This document shows, one piece after another, positions 4,801 to 42,647 of a stretch of 42,647 nt of DNA. The stretch spans positions 1 to 42,647 of IMG/VR virus record IMGVR_UViG_3300029928_000020, one strand, 5' to 3'. The notes beneath the pieces were generated by a model that was given only the letters and a program-made list of their open reading frames with translations, searched no databases and had not been told where the DNA came from. Numbering within the stretch: the first letter of the stretch is position 1; the number at the start of each line of letters is the position of its first letter. This stretch comes from a virus. The translations under genes and the position numbers were made by a program.

Positions 4801-5064
4801 TTATTCCGCCTCCTGTTCCGTGTCAACACCCAGCAGCTCAAGCGCCGCCGCCATGTCCTCCGCGTCCTTCTGGGCCTGTTCCAAAGCCGTCAGGACGCGC
4901 TCCCCGGCCCGGTAGAAGTGTTCGCCGTCGTAGGTGTCGCCGATGGCCACGGGGATTTCACCGCAGGGAACCGCCCCCTCAAATTCCGCCGCGTTGGGTG
5001 GGTACAGCACAATCACATTTACCACAACGCCGTCTTCCACCAGCGCATAAAGTAATTCGTTCAT
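4801..5064 (-). CDS. Small conserved tail-module protein (87 aa), unknown function
   Basis: Clean ORF abutting neighbours; acidic C-terminus; position typical of fibre accessory/assembly proteins. Confidence 0.6.
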   Translation of the reverse strand: MNELLYALVEDGVVVNVIVLYPPNAAEFEGAVPCGEIPVAIGDTYDGEHFYRAGERVLTALEQAQKDAEDMAAALELLGVDTEQEAE

Positions 5065-37317: not shown

Positions 37318-37334
37318 GTACAGTTAAACTGTAC
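37318..37334. promoter_or_regulatory. Perfect 17-bp palindromic operator GTACAGTT-A-AACTGTAC
   Basis: 8-1-8 perfect dyad between the cro-like stop and the next RBS; related sites lie in the switch region. Confidence 0.7.
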
Positions 37335-37351
37335 TTTTGCTTCAAAAAAAA

Positions 37352-37567
37352 TTACTCGCCAAATCGGATATAATTCAGAGATAACCCAAGTGCGCTTTCG
37401 ATTTTCCCAAGCATTTTTACATTGGGATACCTTCGTCCTGCCTCCCATGCAATAACGGTGGATTCACTCACACCGCACTTTTCCGCAAATTCTTTTTGCG
37501 TCAATTTGGCATTTACACGTGCGGCGGCCAAAGAAAACGAAGGATAAGAAATGCTGTGTTCAGACAT
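37352..37567 (-). CDS. Cro-like XRE-family HTH regulator (71 aa)
   Basis: LTQKEFAEKCGVSESTVIAWEAGRRYPNVKMLGKIESALG; second gene of the lytic transcript. Confidence 0.8.
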   Translation of the reverse strand: MSEHSISYPSFSLAAARVNAKLTQKEFAEKCGVSESTVIAWEAGRRYPNVKMLGKIESALGLSLNYIRFGE

Positions 37568-37594
37568 CGCGGTTCACCTCCCTTGCATAGTTCT

Positions 37595-37620
37595 TGCCCT
37601 CGTGACCTCCGGGGCGGGTG
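37595..37620. repeat. 26-bp element, inverted copy of 41586..41611
   Basis: tgccctcgtgacctccggggcgggtg is the reverse complement of cacccgccccggaggtcacgagggca. Confidence 0.9.
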
Positions 37621-37681: not shown

Positions 37682-37939
37682 TTATTGGAAATTTTTACGG
37701 ATGCTGTTCAGCACCTTGCATTCTTCATCAATGTATCGATTCATGGCTACGCATACCGCAACATGTGGATTATCTTGGAGACTGTTCACAGCTTCCATCA
37801 GTTGATAATAAATATTGATAAAAACCCTCCTGTCGTCAGTTACTTGCGGAAAAATGCCACTCCACGTTTTGACCGTCTTGCCATACTTCATTTTGAGAAC
37901 TTCCAGTTTCAGGGACTTCCAAGTATTGTTCATGCTCAT
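37682..37939 (-). CDS. First lytic early gene, hypothetical (85 aa), AT-rich
   Basis: AAAGGAAG RBS; MSMNNTWKSLKLEVLKMKYGK...; immediately downstream of the lytic promoter. Confidence 0.6.
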   Translation of the reverse strand: MSMNNTWKSLKLEVLKMKYGKTVKTWSGIFPQVTDDRRVFINIYYQLMEAVNSLQDNPHVAVCVAMNRYIDEECKVLNSIRKNFQ

Positions 37940-37964
37940 TATTCTTGCTTCCTTTCGTTCGGCA

Positions 37965-37981
37965 GTACAGTTTAACCGTAC
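37965..37981. promoter_or_regulatory. Operator site GTACAGTT-T-AACCGTAC (15/16 dyad)
   Basis: Matches the 37318 palindrome; lies just downstream of the predicted lytic transcription start. Confidence 0.65.
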
Positions 37982-37991
37982 CTGCAATGCT

Positions 37992-38020
37992 ATATTACAA
38001 TAATTTTTTGCCATTGTCAA
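37992..38020 (-). promoter_or_regulatory. Lytic (early) promoter
   Basis: Minus strand TTGACA (38020-15), 17 nt, TAATAT (37997-92). Confidence 0.7.
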
Positions 38021-38034
38021 CAGGTAGACTGTAC
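38018..38034. promoter_or_regulatory. Degenerate operator (12/17 match) overlapping the -35 of the lytic promoter
   Basis: caacaggtagactgtac vs gtacagttaaactgtac. Confidence 0.45.
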
Positions 38035-38050
38035 TTTTTGAAAGTTTTTC

Positions 38051-38079
38051 TTGATTTTTTTACAGGGAAGCTGTACAAT
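38051..38079 (+). promoter_or_regulatory. Repressor (lysogenic) promoter
   Basis: TTGATT (38051-56), 17 nt, TACAAT (38074-79); GGAAGGGAGG RBS before ATG 38120. Confidence 0.65.
38060..38076. promoter_or_regulatory. Operator-like site (13/17) inside the repressor promoter spacer/-10
   Basis: ttacagggaagctgtac contains the TACAG...CTGTA dyad. Confidence 0.45.
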
Positions 38080-38119
38080 GATCTTGGGCATAATAAATAA
38101 GGAAGGGAGGCGCGTAAGA

Positions 38120-38494
38120 ATGAAGGATTTGGGAAACAAGCGTGTAATGTCCAAAAATTTGAAGCGGCTTATGGCCGAAAAGGGCGTTTCTGCTAAAGAA
38201 TTAAGCCGAAGGCTTGATTTTCCATATACAACGCTTTTGTCGTGGCTAAAGGCAGATAACTACCCACGGATTGACAAAATAGAATCCATGGCAAATTATT
38301 TCGGGGTGCAGAAGTCCGACCTGATAGAAGAAAAGCTCACGGACGAACAAAAAGCGGGCAACGAAGCCCTTGCCGGGATCATTGTCCGCTTGAGAATGGA
38401 TGCCGATTTCCGGCAGATCGTCGAGACGCTGGACGCGCTGGACGCTGAAAAGCTGAAAGGCGTTCAGCAGATGTTAGACGCTTTTGCTAAGTAA
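38120..38494 (+). CDS. CI-like XRE-family repressor (124 aa, no S24 peptidase domain)
   Basis: NLKRLMAEKGVSAKELSRRLDFPYTTLLSWLKADNYPRIDKIESMANYFG; divergent from the lytic promoter. Confidence 0.8.
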   Translation: MKDLGNKRVMSKNLKRLMAEKGVSAKELSRRLDFPYTTLLSWLKADNYPRIDKIESMANYFGVQKSDLIEEKLTDEQKAGNEALAGIIVRLRMDADFRQIVETLDALDAEKLKGVQQMLDAFAK

Positions 38495-40933: not shown

Positions 40934-40941
40934 AATTGTAG

Positions 40942-40985
40942 TTGTACATAATTTCTGTACCGAACGGCGCAGAAATTAAATACAA
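40942..40985. other. Candidate attP core: imperfect 16-bp inverted repeat around a 12-bp spacer
   Basis: TTGTACATAATTTCTG-taccgaacggcg-CAGAAATTAAATACAA (14/16 dyad), 9 bp after the integrase stop. Confidence 0.35.
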
Positions 40986-40992
40986 ACAAAAT

Positions 40993-41015
40993 GGCGGCTT
41001 CGGTCGCCGTTTTTC
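40993..41015 (+). terminator. Intrinsic terminator downstream of the integrase
   Basis: ggcggc-ttcg-gtcgcc followed by GTTTTTCTTT. Confidence 0.6.
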
Positions 41016-41050
41016 TTTGAAGAAAATAGTCAGAAAATTCAAAATACTTG

Positions 41051-41079
41051 TTGACAATATACCGCAAGCGGTATATAAT
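41051..41079 (+). promoter_or_regulatory. Consensus sigma70 promoter with a palindromic operator in the spacer
   Basis: TTGACA (41051-56), 17 nt, TATAAT (41074-79); the spacer holds ATATACCGC-AA-GCGGTATAT (41057-41076). Confidence 0.8.
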
Positions 41080-41140
41080 AGTTACGTAATCAAGGAGGGG
41101 CCGCAGGCGGAATAAGCCGCCGGGCATAGGAGATAAAACC

Positions 41141-41578
41141 ATGAAGTACGAAGTCGAAGTCGGCATCAATTACACCACCATCCCACAGGGCCACCGCCCC
41201 AGCACCTACAAATGCTACAGCGCCGCTGAGTGTGAGATCGTCGGCGGCTACGGCATCAGCACTTCTCAGGACTTCACCCGGGCCATGGTCACGGTGGAGC
41301 TGCCGGACTGGTGCGTTCCCAGCAAGAAATGGCGCTGGAATCTTTCCCGCCCCGGCTTCCACTCCACCAGCGGCAGCGACGATCTCTGCTTCGTTTCCTG
41401 CAATCAGAAGGCGGTAACGGACGAAATGATCTCCCTCGGCTGCCTCAAGCCGGACGGCCAGAAGGCGCTGATCCTGCAGGCCATTGATAGCGGCCTCACC
41501 TTCTGGTTCCCCGGCGAAAACGGCCAGATGGAGCAGAAGCCCCTAAAGCCCCTGTCCATCCGCTGGATCGATAAATAA
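41141..41578 (+). CDS. Hypothetical protein (145 aa), first gene of the plus-strand accessory operon
   Basis: AGGAGA RBS; no recognisable motif; Cys/Trp-containing globular sequence. Confidence 0.7.
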   Translation: MKYEVEVGINYTTIPQGHRPSTYKCYSAAECEIVGGYGISTSQDFTRAMVTVELPDWCVPSKKWRWNLSRPGFHSTSGSDDLCFVSCNQKAVTDEMISLGCLKPDGQKALILQAIDSGLTFWFPGENGQMEQKPLKPLSIRWIDK

Positions 41579-41585
41579 CGACGCA

Positions 41586-41611
41586 CACCCGCCCCGGAGG
41601 TCACGAGGGCA
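41586..41611. repeat. 26-bp element, inverted copy of 37595..37620
   Basis: cacccgccccggaggtcacgagggca lies immediately 5' of the RBS of the multi-HTH gene. Confidence 0.9.
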
Positions 41612-41623
41612 GGAGGGAAAGCC

Positions 41624-42175
41624 GTGCAGCAAAAAGACGTTCTCGCCACTTACGAGGTCACCAAAAGCATGAAAGAGACTGCCCGAAAATTAAAATTGTC
41701 GCAGCAGACGGTTCGCCGCGTCCTGATCTCCAATGGTATCTATCCATCGGAGCGGACACGGGAAGTCGCCCGCCTGTGCCTGATGGGCATGACCGTGCCG
41801 GAGATCGCCGAATATCTCGGGATATCCCCAAAAACCGTACAGACAAACTTGCCTTATTCGAAGGGCGGCTATGCGACAGGACAGAGAACAATAAATGCTG
41901 AAAGGATCGCTGACTGCCGCATACGGAAAAAATTAGGGCTGCCGCCAGCGAAAAGAGAACAGGCTCCACACAGTAAATATACGGACAACCCGATCAACAA
42001 TGCCAGACTCTCCAAAGGAATGACGCAAAAGAAATTGGCTTCAATAATCGGATGCAGCCCGGGCACCGTCTCTTGTTGGGAACGAGAGGTACAGTCGCCC
42101 AGCCCCCAAAACTTGGAAAAGCTCCGTGATGCGCTCGGCATCGAAGGAAAGGAGGATTCCAATGCCCAGAACTGA
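41624..42175 (+). CDS. Triple-HTH DNA-binding protein (183 aa)
   Basis: GTG start after AGGAGGGA; MKETARKLKLSQQTVRRVLI, GMTVPEIAEYLGISPKTVQTNL (LuxR/r4-like), MTQKKLASIIGCSPGTVSCWERE (XRE). Confidence 0.75.
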   Translation: MQQKDVLATYEVTKSMKETARKLKLSQQTVRRVLISNGIYPSERTREVARLCLMGMTVPEIAEYLGISPKTVQTNLPYSKGGYATGQRTINAERIADCRIRKKLGLPPAKREQAPHSKYTDNPINNARLSKGMTQKKLASIIGCSPGTVSCWEREVQSPSPQNLEKLRDALGIEGKEDSNAQN

Positions 42176-42377
42176 CCCCCGCCCACGCGGGACGAACTCA
42201 CCCATCACAGCGTCCCGCCTCGCCGCCGGTATGACGCAGGCGCAGCTTGCCGCCGCCGTCGGCTGCACCCAGAAGGACGTTTCGCGCTGGGAACGCGGTG
42301 TATATAGCCCCAAAACGGAAACACTTTCAAAAATCGCGCAGGCGCTTGGCTGCACAATGGAAGACCTTCTCCAATAA
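42162..42377 (+). CDS. XRE-family HTH protein (71 aa)
   Basis: AAAGGAGG RBS; MTQAQLAAAVGCTQKDVSRWERGVYSPKTETLSKIAQALG. Confidence 0.8.
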   Translation: MPRTDPRPRGTNSPITASRLAAGMTQAQLAAAVGCTQKDVSRWERGVYSPKTETLSKIAQALGCTMEDLLQ

Positions 42378-42382
42378 AAAAA

Positions 42383-42409
42383 GCGCCGGGGATCACTCCC
42401 CGGCTTTTT
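42383..42409. terminator. Bidirectional intrinsic terminator between convergent operons
   Basis: AAAAAAA-gc-gccgggga-tcac-tccccggc-TTTTT. Confidence 0.75.
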
Positions 42410-42647
42410 CGTGTTCCAAGTCTGCCAGCCTGTGGTTGATCACCTTGATCTGTTCTTCCACTACCGGCATTCTTTGGGCAAAATTGTTGTGCGCCCTCAC
42501 TTCCCGTGTCAGCTCTTTGATCTGCACGTCCGTCACCGCCTGCGACGTTTTGATACTGTTTTCTACCTTGCGGTTGCTGGCCGCGTTGGTGATGATAACC
42601 CCTACAAGGGCCATTCCCCCCGTGATGAGTGCTGCCATGATCGTTTC
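42393..42647 (-). CDS. Small membrane-anchored coiled-coil protein, 3' part (5' end continues at 105..1 across the circular junction)
   Basis: MAALITGGMALVGVIITNAA (TM), then VQIKELTREVRAHNNFAQRMPVVEEQIKVINHRLADLEHEK; last gene of the tail operon. Confidence 0.65.
   Translation of the reverse strand, partial: ETIMAALITGGMALVGVIITNAASNRKVENSIKTSQAVTDVQIKELTREVRAHNNFAQRMPVVEEQIKVINHRLADLEHEKAGE
42549..42647. repeat. Terminal overlap copy 2 (identical to 1..99)
   Basis: Base-by-base comparison with 1..99. Confidence 0.95.

What the first reader, a model, noticed from the sequence alone, without database searches (positions are those of the whole stretch)
41051..42377. acr/aca-like accessory operon: perfect consensus promoter with an embedded palindrome, an orphan protein and two HTH regulators
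Seen: TTGACA-17-TATAAT (both hexamers perfect), with the spacer occupied by ATATACCGC-AA-GCGGTATAT. A 145-aa protein with no recognisable motif follows, then a 183-aa protein made of three HTH modules and an overlapping 71-aa XRE protein, then a strong bidirectional terminator. The operator differs from the CI/Cro operator family, which suggests autoregulation by its own HTH proteins. Established: anti-CRISPR/anti-defence operons typically consist of a very strong promoter carrying inverted repeats, one or more small orphan effector genes and a downstream HTH (Aca) autorepressor. Prophage-end morons encoding defence or exclusion functions have similar layouts. Inference: the 145-aa protein is a candidate anti-defence or exclusion effector under tight HTH autorepression.
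Basis: partly seen in the sequence, partly recalled or inferred. Interest (0 to 1): 0.65.

Follow-up and report, generated by a model that had tools for sequence, protein, structure and literature searches.

The report
Self-repressed phage accessory operon, orphan cargo
A gut-Clostridia phage carries a small, self-contained gene cassette built like a known anti-CRISPR (acr-aca) operon, with a perfect promoter, its own repressor and a conserved RNA hairpin, driving a rare new-fold protein that is a good but untested candidate inhibitor of bacterial defence.

Summary
TTGACA-17-TATAAT sits at 41051-41079, and the palindrome ATATACCGC-AA-GCGGTATAT fills the spacer. Genes of 145, 183 and 71 aa follow, then a bidirectional terminator.

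Comparison with related phages shows a 1.4-kb insertion beside the serine integrase. A related phage has only a terminator at that site.

The likely autorepressor is the 71-aa XRE protein, not the 183-aa protein. Its recognition helix changes with the operator across sister modules, while a 93%-identical 183-aa protein sits behind a different operator.

The cargo swaps while the regulators stay. The same 183-aa plus XRE pair follows an unrelated 193-aa gene elsewhere, and the 145-aa gene occurs with four regulator sets on three phage backbones.

It belongs to a widespread phage RNA motif that is absent from Rfam, shows strong covariation, and precedes at least 22 unrelated small orphan genes.

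The 145-aa family is tiny and was found only in phage-like sequence. Its model is confident (pLDDT 96) but has no PDB relative, and it is fused to an HTH-like regulator in one distant member (a second, structure-only relative looks similar).

All this matches published acr-aca regulation. Anti-defence function remains inference, because no cargo has a known function.

The parts
40993..41011 (+). Intrinsic terminator after the serine-integrase gene. It is the upstream insulator and left edge of the inserted unit.
   Evidence: stem-loop plus T run. Homology to the module-less relative L014 stops at about 40991.
41016..41050 (+). A/T-rich tract upstream of -35 (gaagaaaatagtcagaaaattcaaaatactt), resembling an UP element.
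   Evidence: Sequence. Similar A/T-rich ...CAGAAAATT... tracts lie upstream of sister promoters. The function is inferred.
41051..41079 (+). Sigma-70/SigA-type promoter: TTGACA, 17-nt spacer, TATAAT (12/12 match).
41057..41076 (.). Operator: perfect palindrome ATATACCGC-AA-GCGGTATAT with core ATACC-N6-GGTAT. It fills the spacer and overlaps the -10 box.
   Evidence: Unique in the window. The same position holds a different palindrome in each sister module, in step with the XRE recognition helix.
41086..41099 (+). Conserved start of the leader: GUAAUCAAG box followed by a purine-rich tract (GGAGGG).
   Evidence: Conserved in the window, L004, L007, the L035 type, the L042 type and L047. AAUCAAG is also present in distant instances L040 and L043. 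The transcription start at about 41086 is inferred from the -10 position.
41100..41125 (+). Leader RNA hairpin: lower stem GCC/GGC, bulged G, a C-G pair, bulged A, upper stem GGCGG/CCGCC, and hexaloop AAUAAG. It ends 2 nt before the SD.
   Evidence: It is the minimum-free-energy fold in five homologues. On 28 sequences 99.6% of cells are paired and 4 pairs show compensatory changes. The covariance-model hit is 41094-41132 at 55 bits. No Rfam match.
41141..41578 (+). Cargo gene: a 145-aa soluble protein (pI 6.1) from a rare family seen only in phage-like sequence, with a new predicted fold.
41586..41615 (+). 30-nt intergenic leader element ahead of the 183-aa gene. It recurs on the minus strand at 37591-37620, ahead of the Cro-like gene.
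41624..42175 (+). 183-aa protein with three HTH modules. It is an optional second regulator whose target is unknown.
   Evidence: Homologues 65-93% identical follow a different cargo and a different operator. The gene is absent from L005, L007 and the L042 type. Its N-terminal two-HTH part is a separate 105-aa gene in L002.
42162..42377 (+). 71-aa XRE protein resembling the 434 repressor. It is the likely autorepressor (Aca-like).
   Evidence: It is 73.5% identical to the C-terminal domain of the L005 133-aa protein. Its recognition helix co-varies with the operator.
42385..42404 (.). Bidirectional intrinsic terminator at the right edge of the unit, shared with the convergent 81-aa gene.

Best explanation
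Window 40993-42404 is a self-contained accessory transcription unit, a moron. It is inserted between the serine-integrase/attP end and the lysis/tail end of a temperate phage of gut Clostridia.

Proposed mechanism:
1. Host RNA polymerase fires from a perfect consensus promoter.
2. The first and best-translated product is the 145-aa cargo.
3. The last gene's product, a 71-aa 434-repressor-like XRE protein, then binds as a dimer to the palindrome that fills the -35/-10 spacer. This shuts the promoter, giving a burst followed by a throttle.
4. A conserved bulged hairpin in the mRNA leader, 2 nt upstream of the Shine-Dalgarno sequence, adds a post-transcriptional layer acting on translation or mRNA stability. 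Hairpins in the same position are known for Aca1 and Aca2: Aca2 represses translation through its hairpins, while the effect of Aca1 binding is still unknown.
5. The 183-aa three-HTH protein is an optional co-regulator with a different, unidentified target.
6. The cargo is a small, non-enzymatic-looking protein seen only in phage-like sequence. It most likely binds and inhibits a host function, with anti-defence as the leading guess.

Shown here: the anatomy, the insertion, the cargo swapping, the operator/recognition-helix co-variation, and the RNA covariation.

Inferred: repression itself, what binds the hairpin, and the function of the cargo.
For: Insertion:
- L014 (integrase 82% identical) has only a bidirectional terminator where the window has the unit.
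- None of 20 phage loci with a related integrase carries the unit.

The unit moves. The 145-aa gene, with the same leader, occurs in three settings:
- after the integrase (window, L004, L005/6);
- next to the small terminase subunit (L007);
- inside a multi-gene cassette of phages with a P22-like portal (L001-3).

Operator and regulator change together:
- ATACC-N6-GGTAT goes with recognition helix [TS]QKD[VI]SRWE (window, L005).
- TATC-N6-GATA goes with K[PQ]L[AT][VI]SRWE (L007, L035 type, L042 type).
- TAGCACCGCGGTGCTA goes with the 161-aa HTH type (L001-3, L046).
- The 183-aa protein is 93% identical in L052 although the operator there is different.

Cargo swaps while regulators stay:
- The 183-aa plus XRE pair follows a 193-aa orphan in at least 12 loci.
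- L103/L076 carry 68-aa and 156-aa genes where L007 has the 145-aa gene.
- L042, L051 and L072 have three tandem promoter/operator/leader units and one terminal XRE gene.

RNA motif:
- 99.6% of cells are paired, with compensatory changes at 4 pairs. One of these (GC 20 / CG 7) was not constrained by my search pattern.
- G-U pairs occur only on this strand.
- All 17 IMG/VR loci with the close XRE family carry the motif upstream. None of about 61 loci with generic XRE proteins carries it upstream on the XRE strand (one, L113, has a weak opposite-strand hit, 25.6 bits).

Cargo:
- Only 24 cluster representatives among 1.84 billion proteins, and none in 185,579 genomes.
- The model has pLDDT 95.7, with no PDB relative by fold or by profile.
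- Distant member P0015 is fused to an HTH-like regulator of the type that follows the cargo in L047.
- A BFVD structural relative of 207 aa is annotated as an HTH regulator.

Published parallel: PMC13551039 describes acr-aca operons with these features:
- an inverted repeat in the promoter;
- a 5'UTR hairpin with a conserved lower stem, unpaired bases and a co-varying upper stem;
- RNA motifs between genes;
- up to three motif pairs before neighbouring operons with a single aca gene.
Against: - No cargo in any sister module has a known anti-defence or any other function. The association argument therefore has no positive anchor.
- The XRE protein is not significantly similar to any solved Aca protein (best is Aca3, E 0.48).
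- The RNA motif keeps its conserved nucleotides across modules whose XRE proteins and operators differ. It also occurs in distant phages that lack this XRE family within 4.5 kb. Its binder may therefore not be the XRE protein, unlike the Aca1 and Aca2 motifs, which track their protein.
- Distant relatives of the 145-aa protein lie in plain arrays of small genes with no operator, no hairpin and no recognisable HTH neighbour.
- Most sister modules come from one metagenome (3300045988). The co-occurrence counts are therefore inflated by shared ancestry.
Confidence: 0.55

Rival explanations
1. Prophage-expressed conversion gene. The unit sits at the prophage end and is expressed at a low, self-limited level in the lysogen. 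The 145-aa protein would then protect the lysogen, by superinfection exclusion or defence, rather than help the infecting phage.
For: - The position is next to the probable attP. After integration this would be the outermost gene block beside host DNA, a classic moron site.
- The unit is insulated by terminators and does not use the CI/Cro operators.
- Autorepression gives steady low expression.
Against: - The same gene occurs next to the terminase and inside cassettes of other phage backbones, where no integrase was seen in the 12-kb loci.
- There is no PADLOC match and no membrane segment.
- The family is absent from 185,579 bacterial and archaeal genomes, although prophage defence genes usually spread to chromosomes.
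Confidence: 0.2
2. Host-takeover or regulatory partner. The 145-aa protein would be an antirepressor, or a sensor or co-regulator that works through the HTH proteins. The module would then be a switch rather than an effector cassette.
For: - The domain is fused to an HTH-like regulator in P0015, and possibly in the 207-aa BFVD relative.
- In the close subfamily the gene always lies within an operon that ends in an HTH gene.
- A 30-nt leader element is shared between the 183-aa gene and the Cro-like gene.
Against: - The operator is unique in the genome, so the regulators have no other visible target.
- The same regulators serve unrelated cargo.
- Distant relatives stand alone without any HTH neighbour.
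- Acr-HTH fusions are known too (PMC5758886, PMC9638941), so a fusion does not separate this reading from the anti-defence one.
Confidence: 0.15
3. Type II toxin-antitoxin pair in HigBA order, with the 145-aa protein as toxin and the XRE protein as antitoxin and autorepressor.
For: - The gene order is a small protein first and an XRE HTH second.
- A palindrome overlaps the promoter.
- The XRE protein gives weak generic hits to HigA, HipB and MqsA antitoxin models.
Against: - The gaps between the genes are 45-54 nt, so translational coupling is not suggested.
- The partner varies: 71 aa with no extra domain, 125 or 133 aa with an N-terminal domain, or genes in between.
- Distant relatives have no antitoxin-like neighbour.
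- The family is absent from bacterial chromosomes.
- There is no similarity to any toxin fold or family.
- The same XRE pair follows other unrelated cargo.
Confidence: 0.07

Closest known systems
acr-aca operons with dual DNA and RNA control (Aca1, Aca2; PMC13551039)
   Same: - A strong promoter with an inverted repeat overlapping it.
- Small orphan gene(s) first and an HTH regulator last.
- A 5'UTR hairpin with a conserved lower stem, unpaired bases and a co-varying upper stem.
- Copies of the RNA motif between genes.
- Several tandem operons carrying the same DNA and RNA motifs with a single regulator gene.
- Variable cargo with a conserved regulator.
   Different: - The regulator is not a member of a solved Aca family by sequence.
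- A second, three-HTH regulator is present.
- The RNA motif keeps its conserved nucleotides across different regulators. It also occurs in phages without this XRE family, whereas the Aca1 and Aca2 motifs track their protein.
- No cargo is a known Acr.
Bifunctional Acr-regulator fusions (AcrIIA1, PMC5758886; AcrIF24, PMC9638941)
   Same: A distant member of the 145-aa family (P0015) is fused to an HTH-like regulator. That regulator is of the type encoded just downstream of the cargo in a sister module (L047).
   Different: No inhibitory activity is known for the 145-aa domain. The fusion order here is cargo at the N-terminus and HTH at the C-terminus.
Morons of temperate phages: autonomous promoter-gene-terminator insertions (concept recalled from memory, not checked in a paper here)
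   Same: The unit is inserted between genes that are adjacent in a related phage, and it has its own promoter and terminators.
   Different: - It carries its own repressor genes and an RNA leader element.
- Overall G+C does not differ from the genome (0.559 against 0.557). Inside, the unit is mosaic (0.60 / 0.52 / 0.62).
PeSL mobile regulatory cassettes of T4-type phages (PMC2839356, PMC4122927; titles and abstract openings seen, details recalled from memory)
   Same: - Repeated promoter-plus-stem-loop units flank variable orphan ORFs.
- Homology breakpoints fall inside the regulatory cassette: identity between the window and L007 begins at the -10 box. This suggests that the repeats also serve as recombination points for cargo shuffling.
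   Different: - Here the stem-loop lies in the transcribed leader next to the SD, not in a terminator.
- It shows RNA-type covariation.
- The promoters carry repressor operators.
Controller (C) proteins of restriction-modification systems and the phage 434 / P22 C2 repressor N-terminal domains
   Same: A small XRE-type HTH dimer binds a palindrome at its own promoter. The closest solved sequences to the 71-aa protein are the 434 repressor and P22 C2.
   Different: There are no restriction-modification genes. The protein is not the phage's immunity repressor, whose operators differ.

Membership tests
acr-aca operon | Promoter with an inverted-repeat operator overlapping the -35/-10 region | tested here: met
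   A 9+9 palindrome lies in the 17-nt spacer of a 12/12 promoter. The same layout, with other palindromes, is seen in all sister modules.
acr-aca operon | A DNA-binding regulator gene (HTH or RHH) in the same operon, downstream of small cargo gene(s) | tested here: met
   The 183-aa three-HTH gene and the 71-aa XRE gene lie between the cargo and the terminator.
acr-aca operon | The regulator binds the inverted repeat and represses the operon | not testable with these tools
   Support is indirect only: the XRE recognition helix co-varies with the operator half-sites across five module types.
acr-aca operon | Conserved regulator with variable upstream cargo | tested here: met
   The same 183-aa plus XRE pair occurs with a 145-aa or a 193-aa cargo. 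The XRE family occurs with 68-, 82-, 105- and 156-aa cargo.
acr-aca operon | [quoted passage not shown] | tested here: met
   A bulged hairpin with covariation ends 2 nt before the SD. Its binding partner is unknown.
acr-aca operon | The cargo inhibits CRISPR-Cas or another defence system | not testable with these tools
   There is no homology to anything of known function. No anti-defence HMM library was on hand.
Aca1-Aca14 protein families | Sequence membership of the regulator in a named Aca family | tested here: inconclusive
   Among PDB chains only Aca3 appears, at E 0.48, which is not significant. The best hits are the 434 repressor and P22 C2. Aca families without a solved structure could not be compared.
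Type II toxin-antitoxin module (HigBA-like) | Toxin of a recognisable toxin family or fold | tested here: not met
   No Pfam, NCBIfam or PDB match by sequence or fold.
Type II toxin-antitoxin module (HigBA-like) | Fixed cognate pair, found together wherever the toxin occurs | tested here: not met
   The partner architecture varies, and distant relatives lack any HTH neighbour.
Moron | Inserted between genes that are adjacent in a related phage, with its own promoter and terminator | tested here: met
   L014 compared with the window; promoter and terminators.
Moron | Base composition different from the surrounding genome | tested here: not met
   The module has G+C 0.559 against 0.557 for the window. 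The three genes differ among themselves.
Known RNA families (Rfam 15) | Match of the leader hairpin to a curated covariance model | tested here: not met
   No relevant hit at E up to 10 in the window region, nor at E up to 1 in five motif-bearing loci.
PeSL-type mobile regulatory cassette | Repeated promoter plus stem-loop units flanking variable ORFs, with recombination breakpoints in the units | tested here: inconclusive
   Tandem repeated units occur in L042, L051 and L072. The window/L007 identity starts at the -10 box. No direct evidence of recombination was obtained.

The most novel reading that the evidence does not exclude
The leader hairpin (consensus GCC-G-C-R-GGNNN-RAYAAG-NNNCC-G-GGC, then 1-5 nt, then the SD in most instances) would be a new, widespread phage RNA element.

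It would act as a common translational operator, or 'early accessory gene tag', read by one conserved factor. That factor could be the arginine-rich N-terminal arm of this XRE family, the three-HTH protein, or a host protein.

The motif would mark dozens of unrelated orphan genes as one co-regulated set of counter-defence or host-takeover effectors. The 145-aa family would be a new-fold inhibitor within that set. The motif would then be a search handle for anti-defence genes in gut Clostridia phages, where almost none are known.
Probability: 0.3. Interest if true: 0.8.

Novelty: new variant of a known kind. Interest (0 to 1): 0.62.

Why it matters
If the reading is right, this locus provides three things.

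1. A new anti-defence (or host-takeover) protein family with an unseen fold, from phages of hard-to-culture gut Clostridia.
2. A new Aca-like regulator set: a 434-type XRE protein plus an optional three-HTH protein.
3. A compact RNA motif, absent from Rfam, that precedes at least 22 unrelated small orphan phage genes in samples from about 19 metagenomes.

The third item is the practical one. A covariance model of 40 positions could list candidate effectors across viromes, in the way aca genes were used to find anti-CRISPRs. It would also test whether dual DNA/RNA control is general beyond Aca1 and Aca2.

If the cargo turns out to do something else, the locus still documents modular promoter-operator-leader cassettes that shuffle cargo between unrelated phages.

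Tried and rejected
Steps that led nowhere:
- Structure prediction with the 8 close homologues failed (pLDDT 45). It worked only after distant representatives were added.
- GenBank phages gave no match to the leader DNA or to the protein.
- The alignment-based word-index search returned few distant members.
- Rfam gave nothing.
- PADLOC, Pfam and PHROGs gave nothing for any cargo.
- The family profile matched no PDB sequence at E up to 10.
- I looked for a protein family shared by all motif-bearing loci that might bind the RNA. The result was swamped by spurious ORFs in G+C-rich DNA and was inconclusive.

Readings considered and set aside:
- **A nut/boxB-type antitermination site.** The loop resembles P22 boxB (from memory). 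However, the hairpin is locked 1-5 nt from the SD in most instances, recurs between cistrons, and no internal terminator needs to be read through.
- **An attenuator.** No U run follows the stem.
- **A second DNA operator.** G-U pairs and strand-specific covariation argue for RNA.
- **A Cys-His-Asp catalytic site in the 145-aa protein.** H18, C83 and C87 are each replaced in several family members, so they are more likely structural.
- **The 183-aa protein as reader of the spacer palindrome.** It is 93% identical where the operator differs.
Full report
**1. The observation**

- The sequence contains TTGACA (41051-41056), a 17-nt spacer and TATAAT (41074-41079).
- The spacer and the first bases of the -10 box form the perfect palindrome ATATACCGC-AA-GCGGTATAT (41057-41076).
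  - No second copy exists in the window even with three mismatches, against 0.01 expected.
  - The looser core ATACC-N6-GGTAT is also unique.
- Three ORFs follow, each with a good Shine-Dalgarno sequence:
  - 145 aa (41141-41578);
  - 183 aa (41624-42175, GTG start);
  - 71 aa (42162-42377, overlapping the previous gene by 14 nt).
- A terminator that reads on both strands lies at 42385-42404, and another at 40993-41011 separates the unit from the integrase gene.
- Domain content:
  - The 145-aa protein has no Pfam, NCBIfam or PADLOC hit and no credible PHROG hit.
  - The 183-aa protein has three HTH modules.
  - The 71-aa protein is a plain XRE/HTH_3 domain. Its closest solved relatives are the 434 repressor and P22 C2.
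- The CI/Cro region uses a different operator, GTACAGTT-AA-ACTGTAC, at 37318, 37964 and 38020.

**2. Setting**

- The window is a circularly permuted temperate phage genome. Its end joins its start, as shown by colinearity with contig L004.
- Relatives of its large serine integrase lie on phage-sized contigs binned with gut Clostridia MAGs (Oscillospiraceae, Acutalibacteraceae and others).
- None of 20 such loci carries the unit.
- In L014 (integrase 82% identical) homology stops at window position ~40991 and resumes beyond the wrap. L014 has only a bidirectional terminator between the integrase and a holin-like gene.
- The unit is therefore a discrete insertion of about 1.4 kb.
- About 55 bp just after the integrase stop codon are conserved in all four phages and are probably attP. 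If so, the unit becomes the outermost block of the prophage. This step is inferred.

**3. The cargo protein**

- A word-indexed search of 5.8 billion proteins found seven relatives, 66-91% identical.
- An exhaustive profile search of 1.84 billion cluster representatives found 24.
- A scan of 185,579 species genomes found none, and GenBank phages gave none.
- With 30 sequences the AlphaFold model is confident (pLDDT 95.7, pTM 0.88).
  - Foldseek found nothing in the PDB (best E 1, TM 0.22).
  - It found three uncharacterised gut-virome proteins in BFVD (TM 0.61-0.72).
  - The family profile matches no PDB sequence at E up to 10.
- The proteins are mildly acidic.
- The best-conserved polar residues (H18, D56, C83, C87) are each replaced in some members, so a binding protein is more likely than an enzyme. 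This is inference.
- One distant member, P0015, carries a C-terminal extension homologous to the 115-aa HTH-like gene that follows the cargo in sister module L047. One BFVD relative of 207 aa is annotated as an HTH regulator.
- Other distant members sit in plain arrays of small unannotated genes, without an operator, a hairpin or an HTH neighbour.

**4. The module in other phages**

The close subfamily occurs on three backbones, each time with its own terminator, promoter, palindrome and leader.

| Loci | Position | Operator | Regulator(s) |
|---|---|---|---|
| Window, L004 | after the integrase | ATATACCGC-AA-GCGGTATAT | 183 aa + 71 aa |
| L005, L006 | after the integrase | ATACCC-TTTT-GGGTAT | one 133-aa protein; its last 68 residues are 73.5% identical to the 71-aa protein |
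| L007 (cargo 96% identical) | beside the small terminase subunit | TATCAT-TT-ATGATA | 125-aa protein of the same build |
| L001-3 (P22-like portal) | inside a variable cassette | TAGCACCGCGGTGCTA | 161-aa HTH at the cassette end |

- Nucleotide identity between the window and L007 (93.5%) begins exactly at the -10 box and ends 15 nt after the cargo stop codon. The -35 and operator part has been exchanged.
- Relative to L005, the 183-aa gene replaces the N-terminal domain of the 133-aa protein.
- The first two HTH modules of the 183-aa protein exist as a separate 105-aa gene in L002.

**5. Which protein reads the operator**

- The operators of the window and L005 share ATACC-N6-GGTAT. Their XRE proteins share the recognition helix [TS]QKD[VI]SRWE.
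- L007, the L035 type and the L042 type share TATC-N6-GATA and the helix K[PQ]L[AT][VI]SRWE.
- The 183-aa protein is 90-93% identical in most L035-type loci (about 65% in L068 and L074), including its own XRE helix, although the operator there is TATC-CAAAAA-GATA.
- The small XRE protein is therefore the likely autorepressor. The target of the three-HTH protein is unknown.
- The sample is small (five module types), so this is descriptive evidence, not a statistical test.

**6. Cargo swapping**

- In at least 12 loci the same 183-aa plus XRE pair follows a 193-aa orphan (phrog_18108, unknown function) instead of the 145-aa gene.
- L103 and L076 have a 68-aa and a 156-aa gene where L007 has the 145-aa gene.
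- L042, L051 and L072 have three tandem units with the same promoter, operator and leader. These drive 105-, 82- and 68-aa genes, and a single XRE gene lies at the end.
- None of these cargo proteins has a Pfam, PADLOC or functional PHROG match.

**7. The leader RNA**

- Between the promoter and the SD lies a hairpin (41100-41125) with this layout:
  - lower stem GCC/GGC;
  - bulged G;
  - a C-G pair;
  - bulged A;
  - upper stem GGCGG/CCGCC;
  - loop AAUAAG.
- It is the minimum-free-energy fold in five homologues. The z-scores are modest because the sequence is G+C-rich.
- An exact-pattern scan of IMG/VR that left the upper-stem triplets free returned 53 loci.
  - In about 35 of them the triplets are complementary, using six different sequences.
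  - In those the motif sits just upstream (1-5 nt in most) of GGAG and a start codon.
  - The remaining loci are non-complementary hits that mostly lack an SD and start codon downstream.
- On 28 distinct sequences 99.6% of cells pair and four pairs show compensatory changes.
  - One of these pairs (GC 20, CG 7) was not constrained by my pattern or filter.
  - Sliding the partners by one column drops pairing to about 50%.
  - The three upper-stem pairs were filtered for complementarity, so their counts are biased upward.
- G-U pairs (L005, L002) fit RNA on this strand and not a DNA palindrome.
- The motif precedes at least 22 unrelated cargo families of 49-193 aa, most of them acidic.
- It also occurs between cistrons without a promoter (L076, L103).
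- It is absent from Rfam 15.
- The covariance model R1 finds one copy in the window, at 55 bits.
- All 17 IMG/VR loci with the close XRE family carry one to three copies upstream on the same strand. None of about 61 loci with generic XRE proteins carries it upstream on the XRE strand (one, L113, has a weak opposite-strand hit, 25.6 bits).
- Ten or more distant phages carry the motif with no such XRE gene within 4.5 kb.
- The binder is therefore open. Candidates are the XRE family's conserved arginine-rich arm (PRxRG..SPI), the three-HTH protein, or a host factor.

**8. Comparison with what is known**

A 2026 study (PMC13551039) reports the following for acr-aca operons:
- an inverted repeat in the promoter;
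- a transcription start 10-15 nt downstream;
- a 5'UTR hairpin bound by Aca1 or Aca2, with three conserved lower-stem pairs, up to two unpaired bases and a co-varying upper stem;
- RNA motifs between genes of one operon;
- up to three DNA-plus-RNA motif pairs ahead of neighbouring operons that share a single aca gene;
- many regulated genes of unknown function.

The locus here matches each of these points. It differs in four ways:
- The regulator is not a recognised Aca by the comparison I could make (Aca3 E 0.48).
- A second, multi-HTH regulator is present.
- The RNA motif is shared across different regulators instead of tracking one.
- No cargo is a known anti-defence protein.

Other comparisons:
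- Fusions of an inhibitor with its regulator are known (AcrIIA1, PMC5758886; AcrIF24, PMC9638941). This parallels P0015.
- The repeated promoter-plus-stem-loop units flanking variable ORFs also recall the PeSL cassettes of T4-type phages (PMC2839356, PMC4122927). The leader repeats may therefore double as recombination points. This is inference.

**9. Verdict**

| Reading | My confidence |
|---|---|
| Autonomous, self-repressed accessory operon | about 0.85 |
| Full best explanation, including a cargo that inhibits a host function, most likely a defence | about 0.55 |
| Lysogen-protecting conversion gene | 0.2 |
| Regulatory partner or antirepressor | 0.15 |
| Toxin-antitoxin pair | 0.07 |

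- The locus is a new variant of a known kind. Its most useful by-product is the uncatalogued leader RNA motif.

Noticed in passing
window 41100-41125 (covariance-model hit 41094-41132); L035-L087, L096-L112: The leader hairpin is one instance of a widespread phage RNA motif that is absent from Rfam. It shows strong covariation. It sits just upstream (1-5 nt in most instances) of the SD of at least 22 unrelated small orphan genes, in samples from about 19 metagenomes. It is sometimes repeated three times in tandem units and sometimes lies between cistrons.
   Followed up: yes
window 41586-41615 (+) and 37591-37620 (-): A 30-nt leader element, CACCCGCCCCGGAGGTCACGAGGGCAGGAG, lies ahead of the 183-aa gene. 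It recurs (28/30) ahead of the Cro-like 71-aa gene of the immunity region. Its core also precedes the SD and ATG of unrelated genes in L001, L062, L080, L083 and L110 (in L046 it lies just upstream of a promoter-operator unit, and in L074 no ORF was called downstream). It may be a second recurrent leader or recombination cassette, or a regulatory link to the lysis-lysogeny switch.
   Followed up: partly
window 40936-40990: About 55 bp directly after the integrase stop codon are conserved in the window, L004, L005 and L014, and contain GTACA-N7-TGTAC. This is probably attP, which would put the accessory unit at the very end of the integrated prophage.
   Followed up: partly
window 1 / 42647 junction: The window is a circularly permuted whole phage genome. 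The 81-aa gene at 42393-42638 (-) continues into the tail-fibre genes at the window start, as in contig L004.
   Followed up: yes
window 37318-37335, 37964-37981, 38020-38037: Three copies of a GTACAGTT-AA-ACTGTAC-type palindrome flank the divergent CI-like gene (38051-38494, +) and the Cro-like genes (37352-37567 and 37682-38020, -). These are the probable immunity operators.
   Followed up: partly
window 42393-42638 (-): An 81-aa protein with an N-terminal hydrophobic segment (phrog_1863, unknown function) lies convergent with the operon. L014 has an unrelated 102-aa hydrophobic protein in its place. It may be a holin-like lysis protein.
   Followed up: no
L049 about 2500-2580; L055 about 4920-5000: In two distant phages the RNA motif follows directly after a sequence that looks like a tRNA 3' end (GGGTTCGATTCCCGCCCGCCG).
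   Followed up: no
L001 3269-3297; L002 4249; L003 4529: The first promoter of the variable cassette in the phages with a P22-like portal also carries a spacer palindrome: TTGACA-aGGGTATATACCCatga-TATACT. Spacer operators therefore seem to be the rule for accessory promoters in these phages.
   Followed up: no
L002 8223-8540 compared with window 41651-41941: The first two HTH modules of the 183-aa protein exist as a free-standing 105-aa gene (45% identical) in another phage's cassette. The 183-aa protein is therefore a fusion of that unit with a paralogue (46% identical) of the 71-aa XRE protein.
   Followed up: partly
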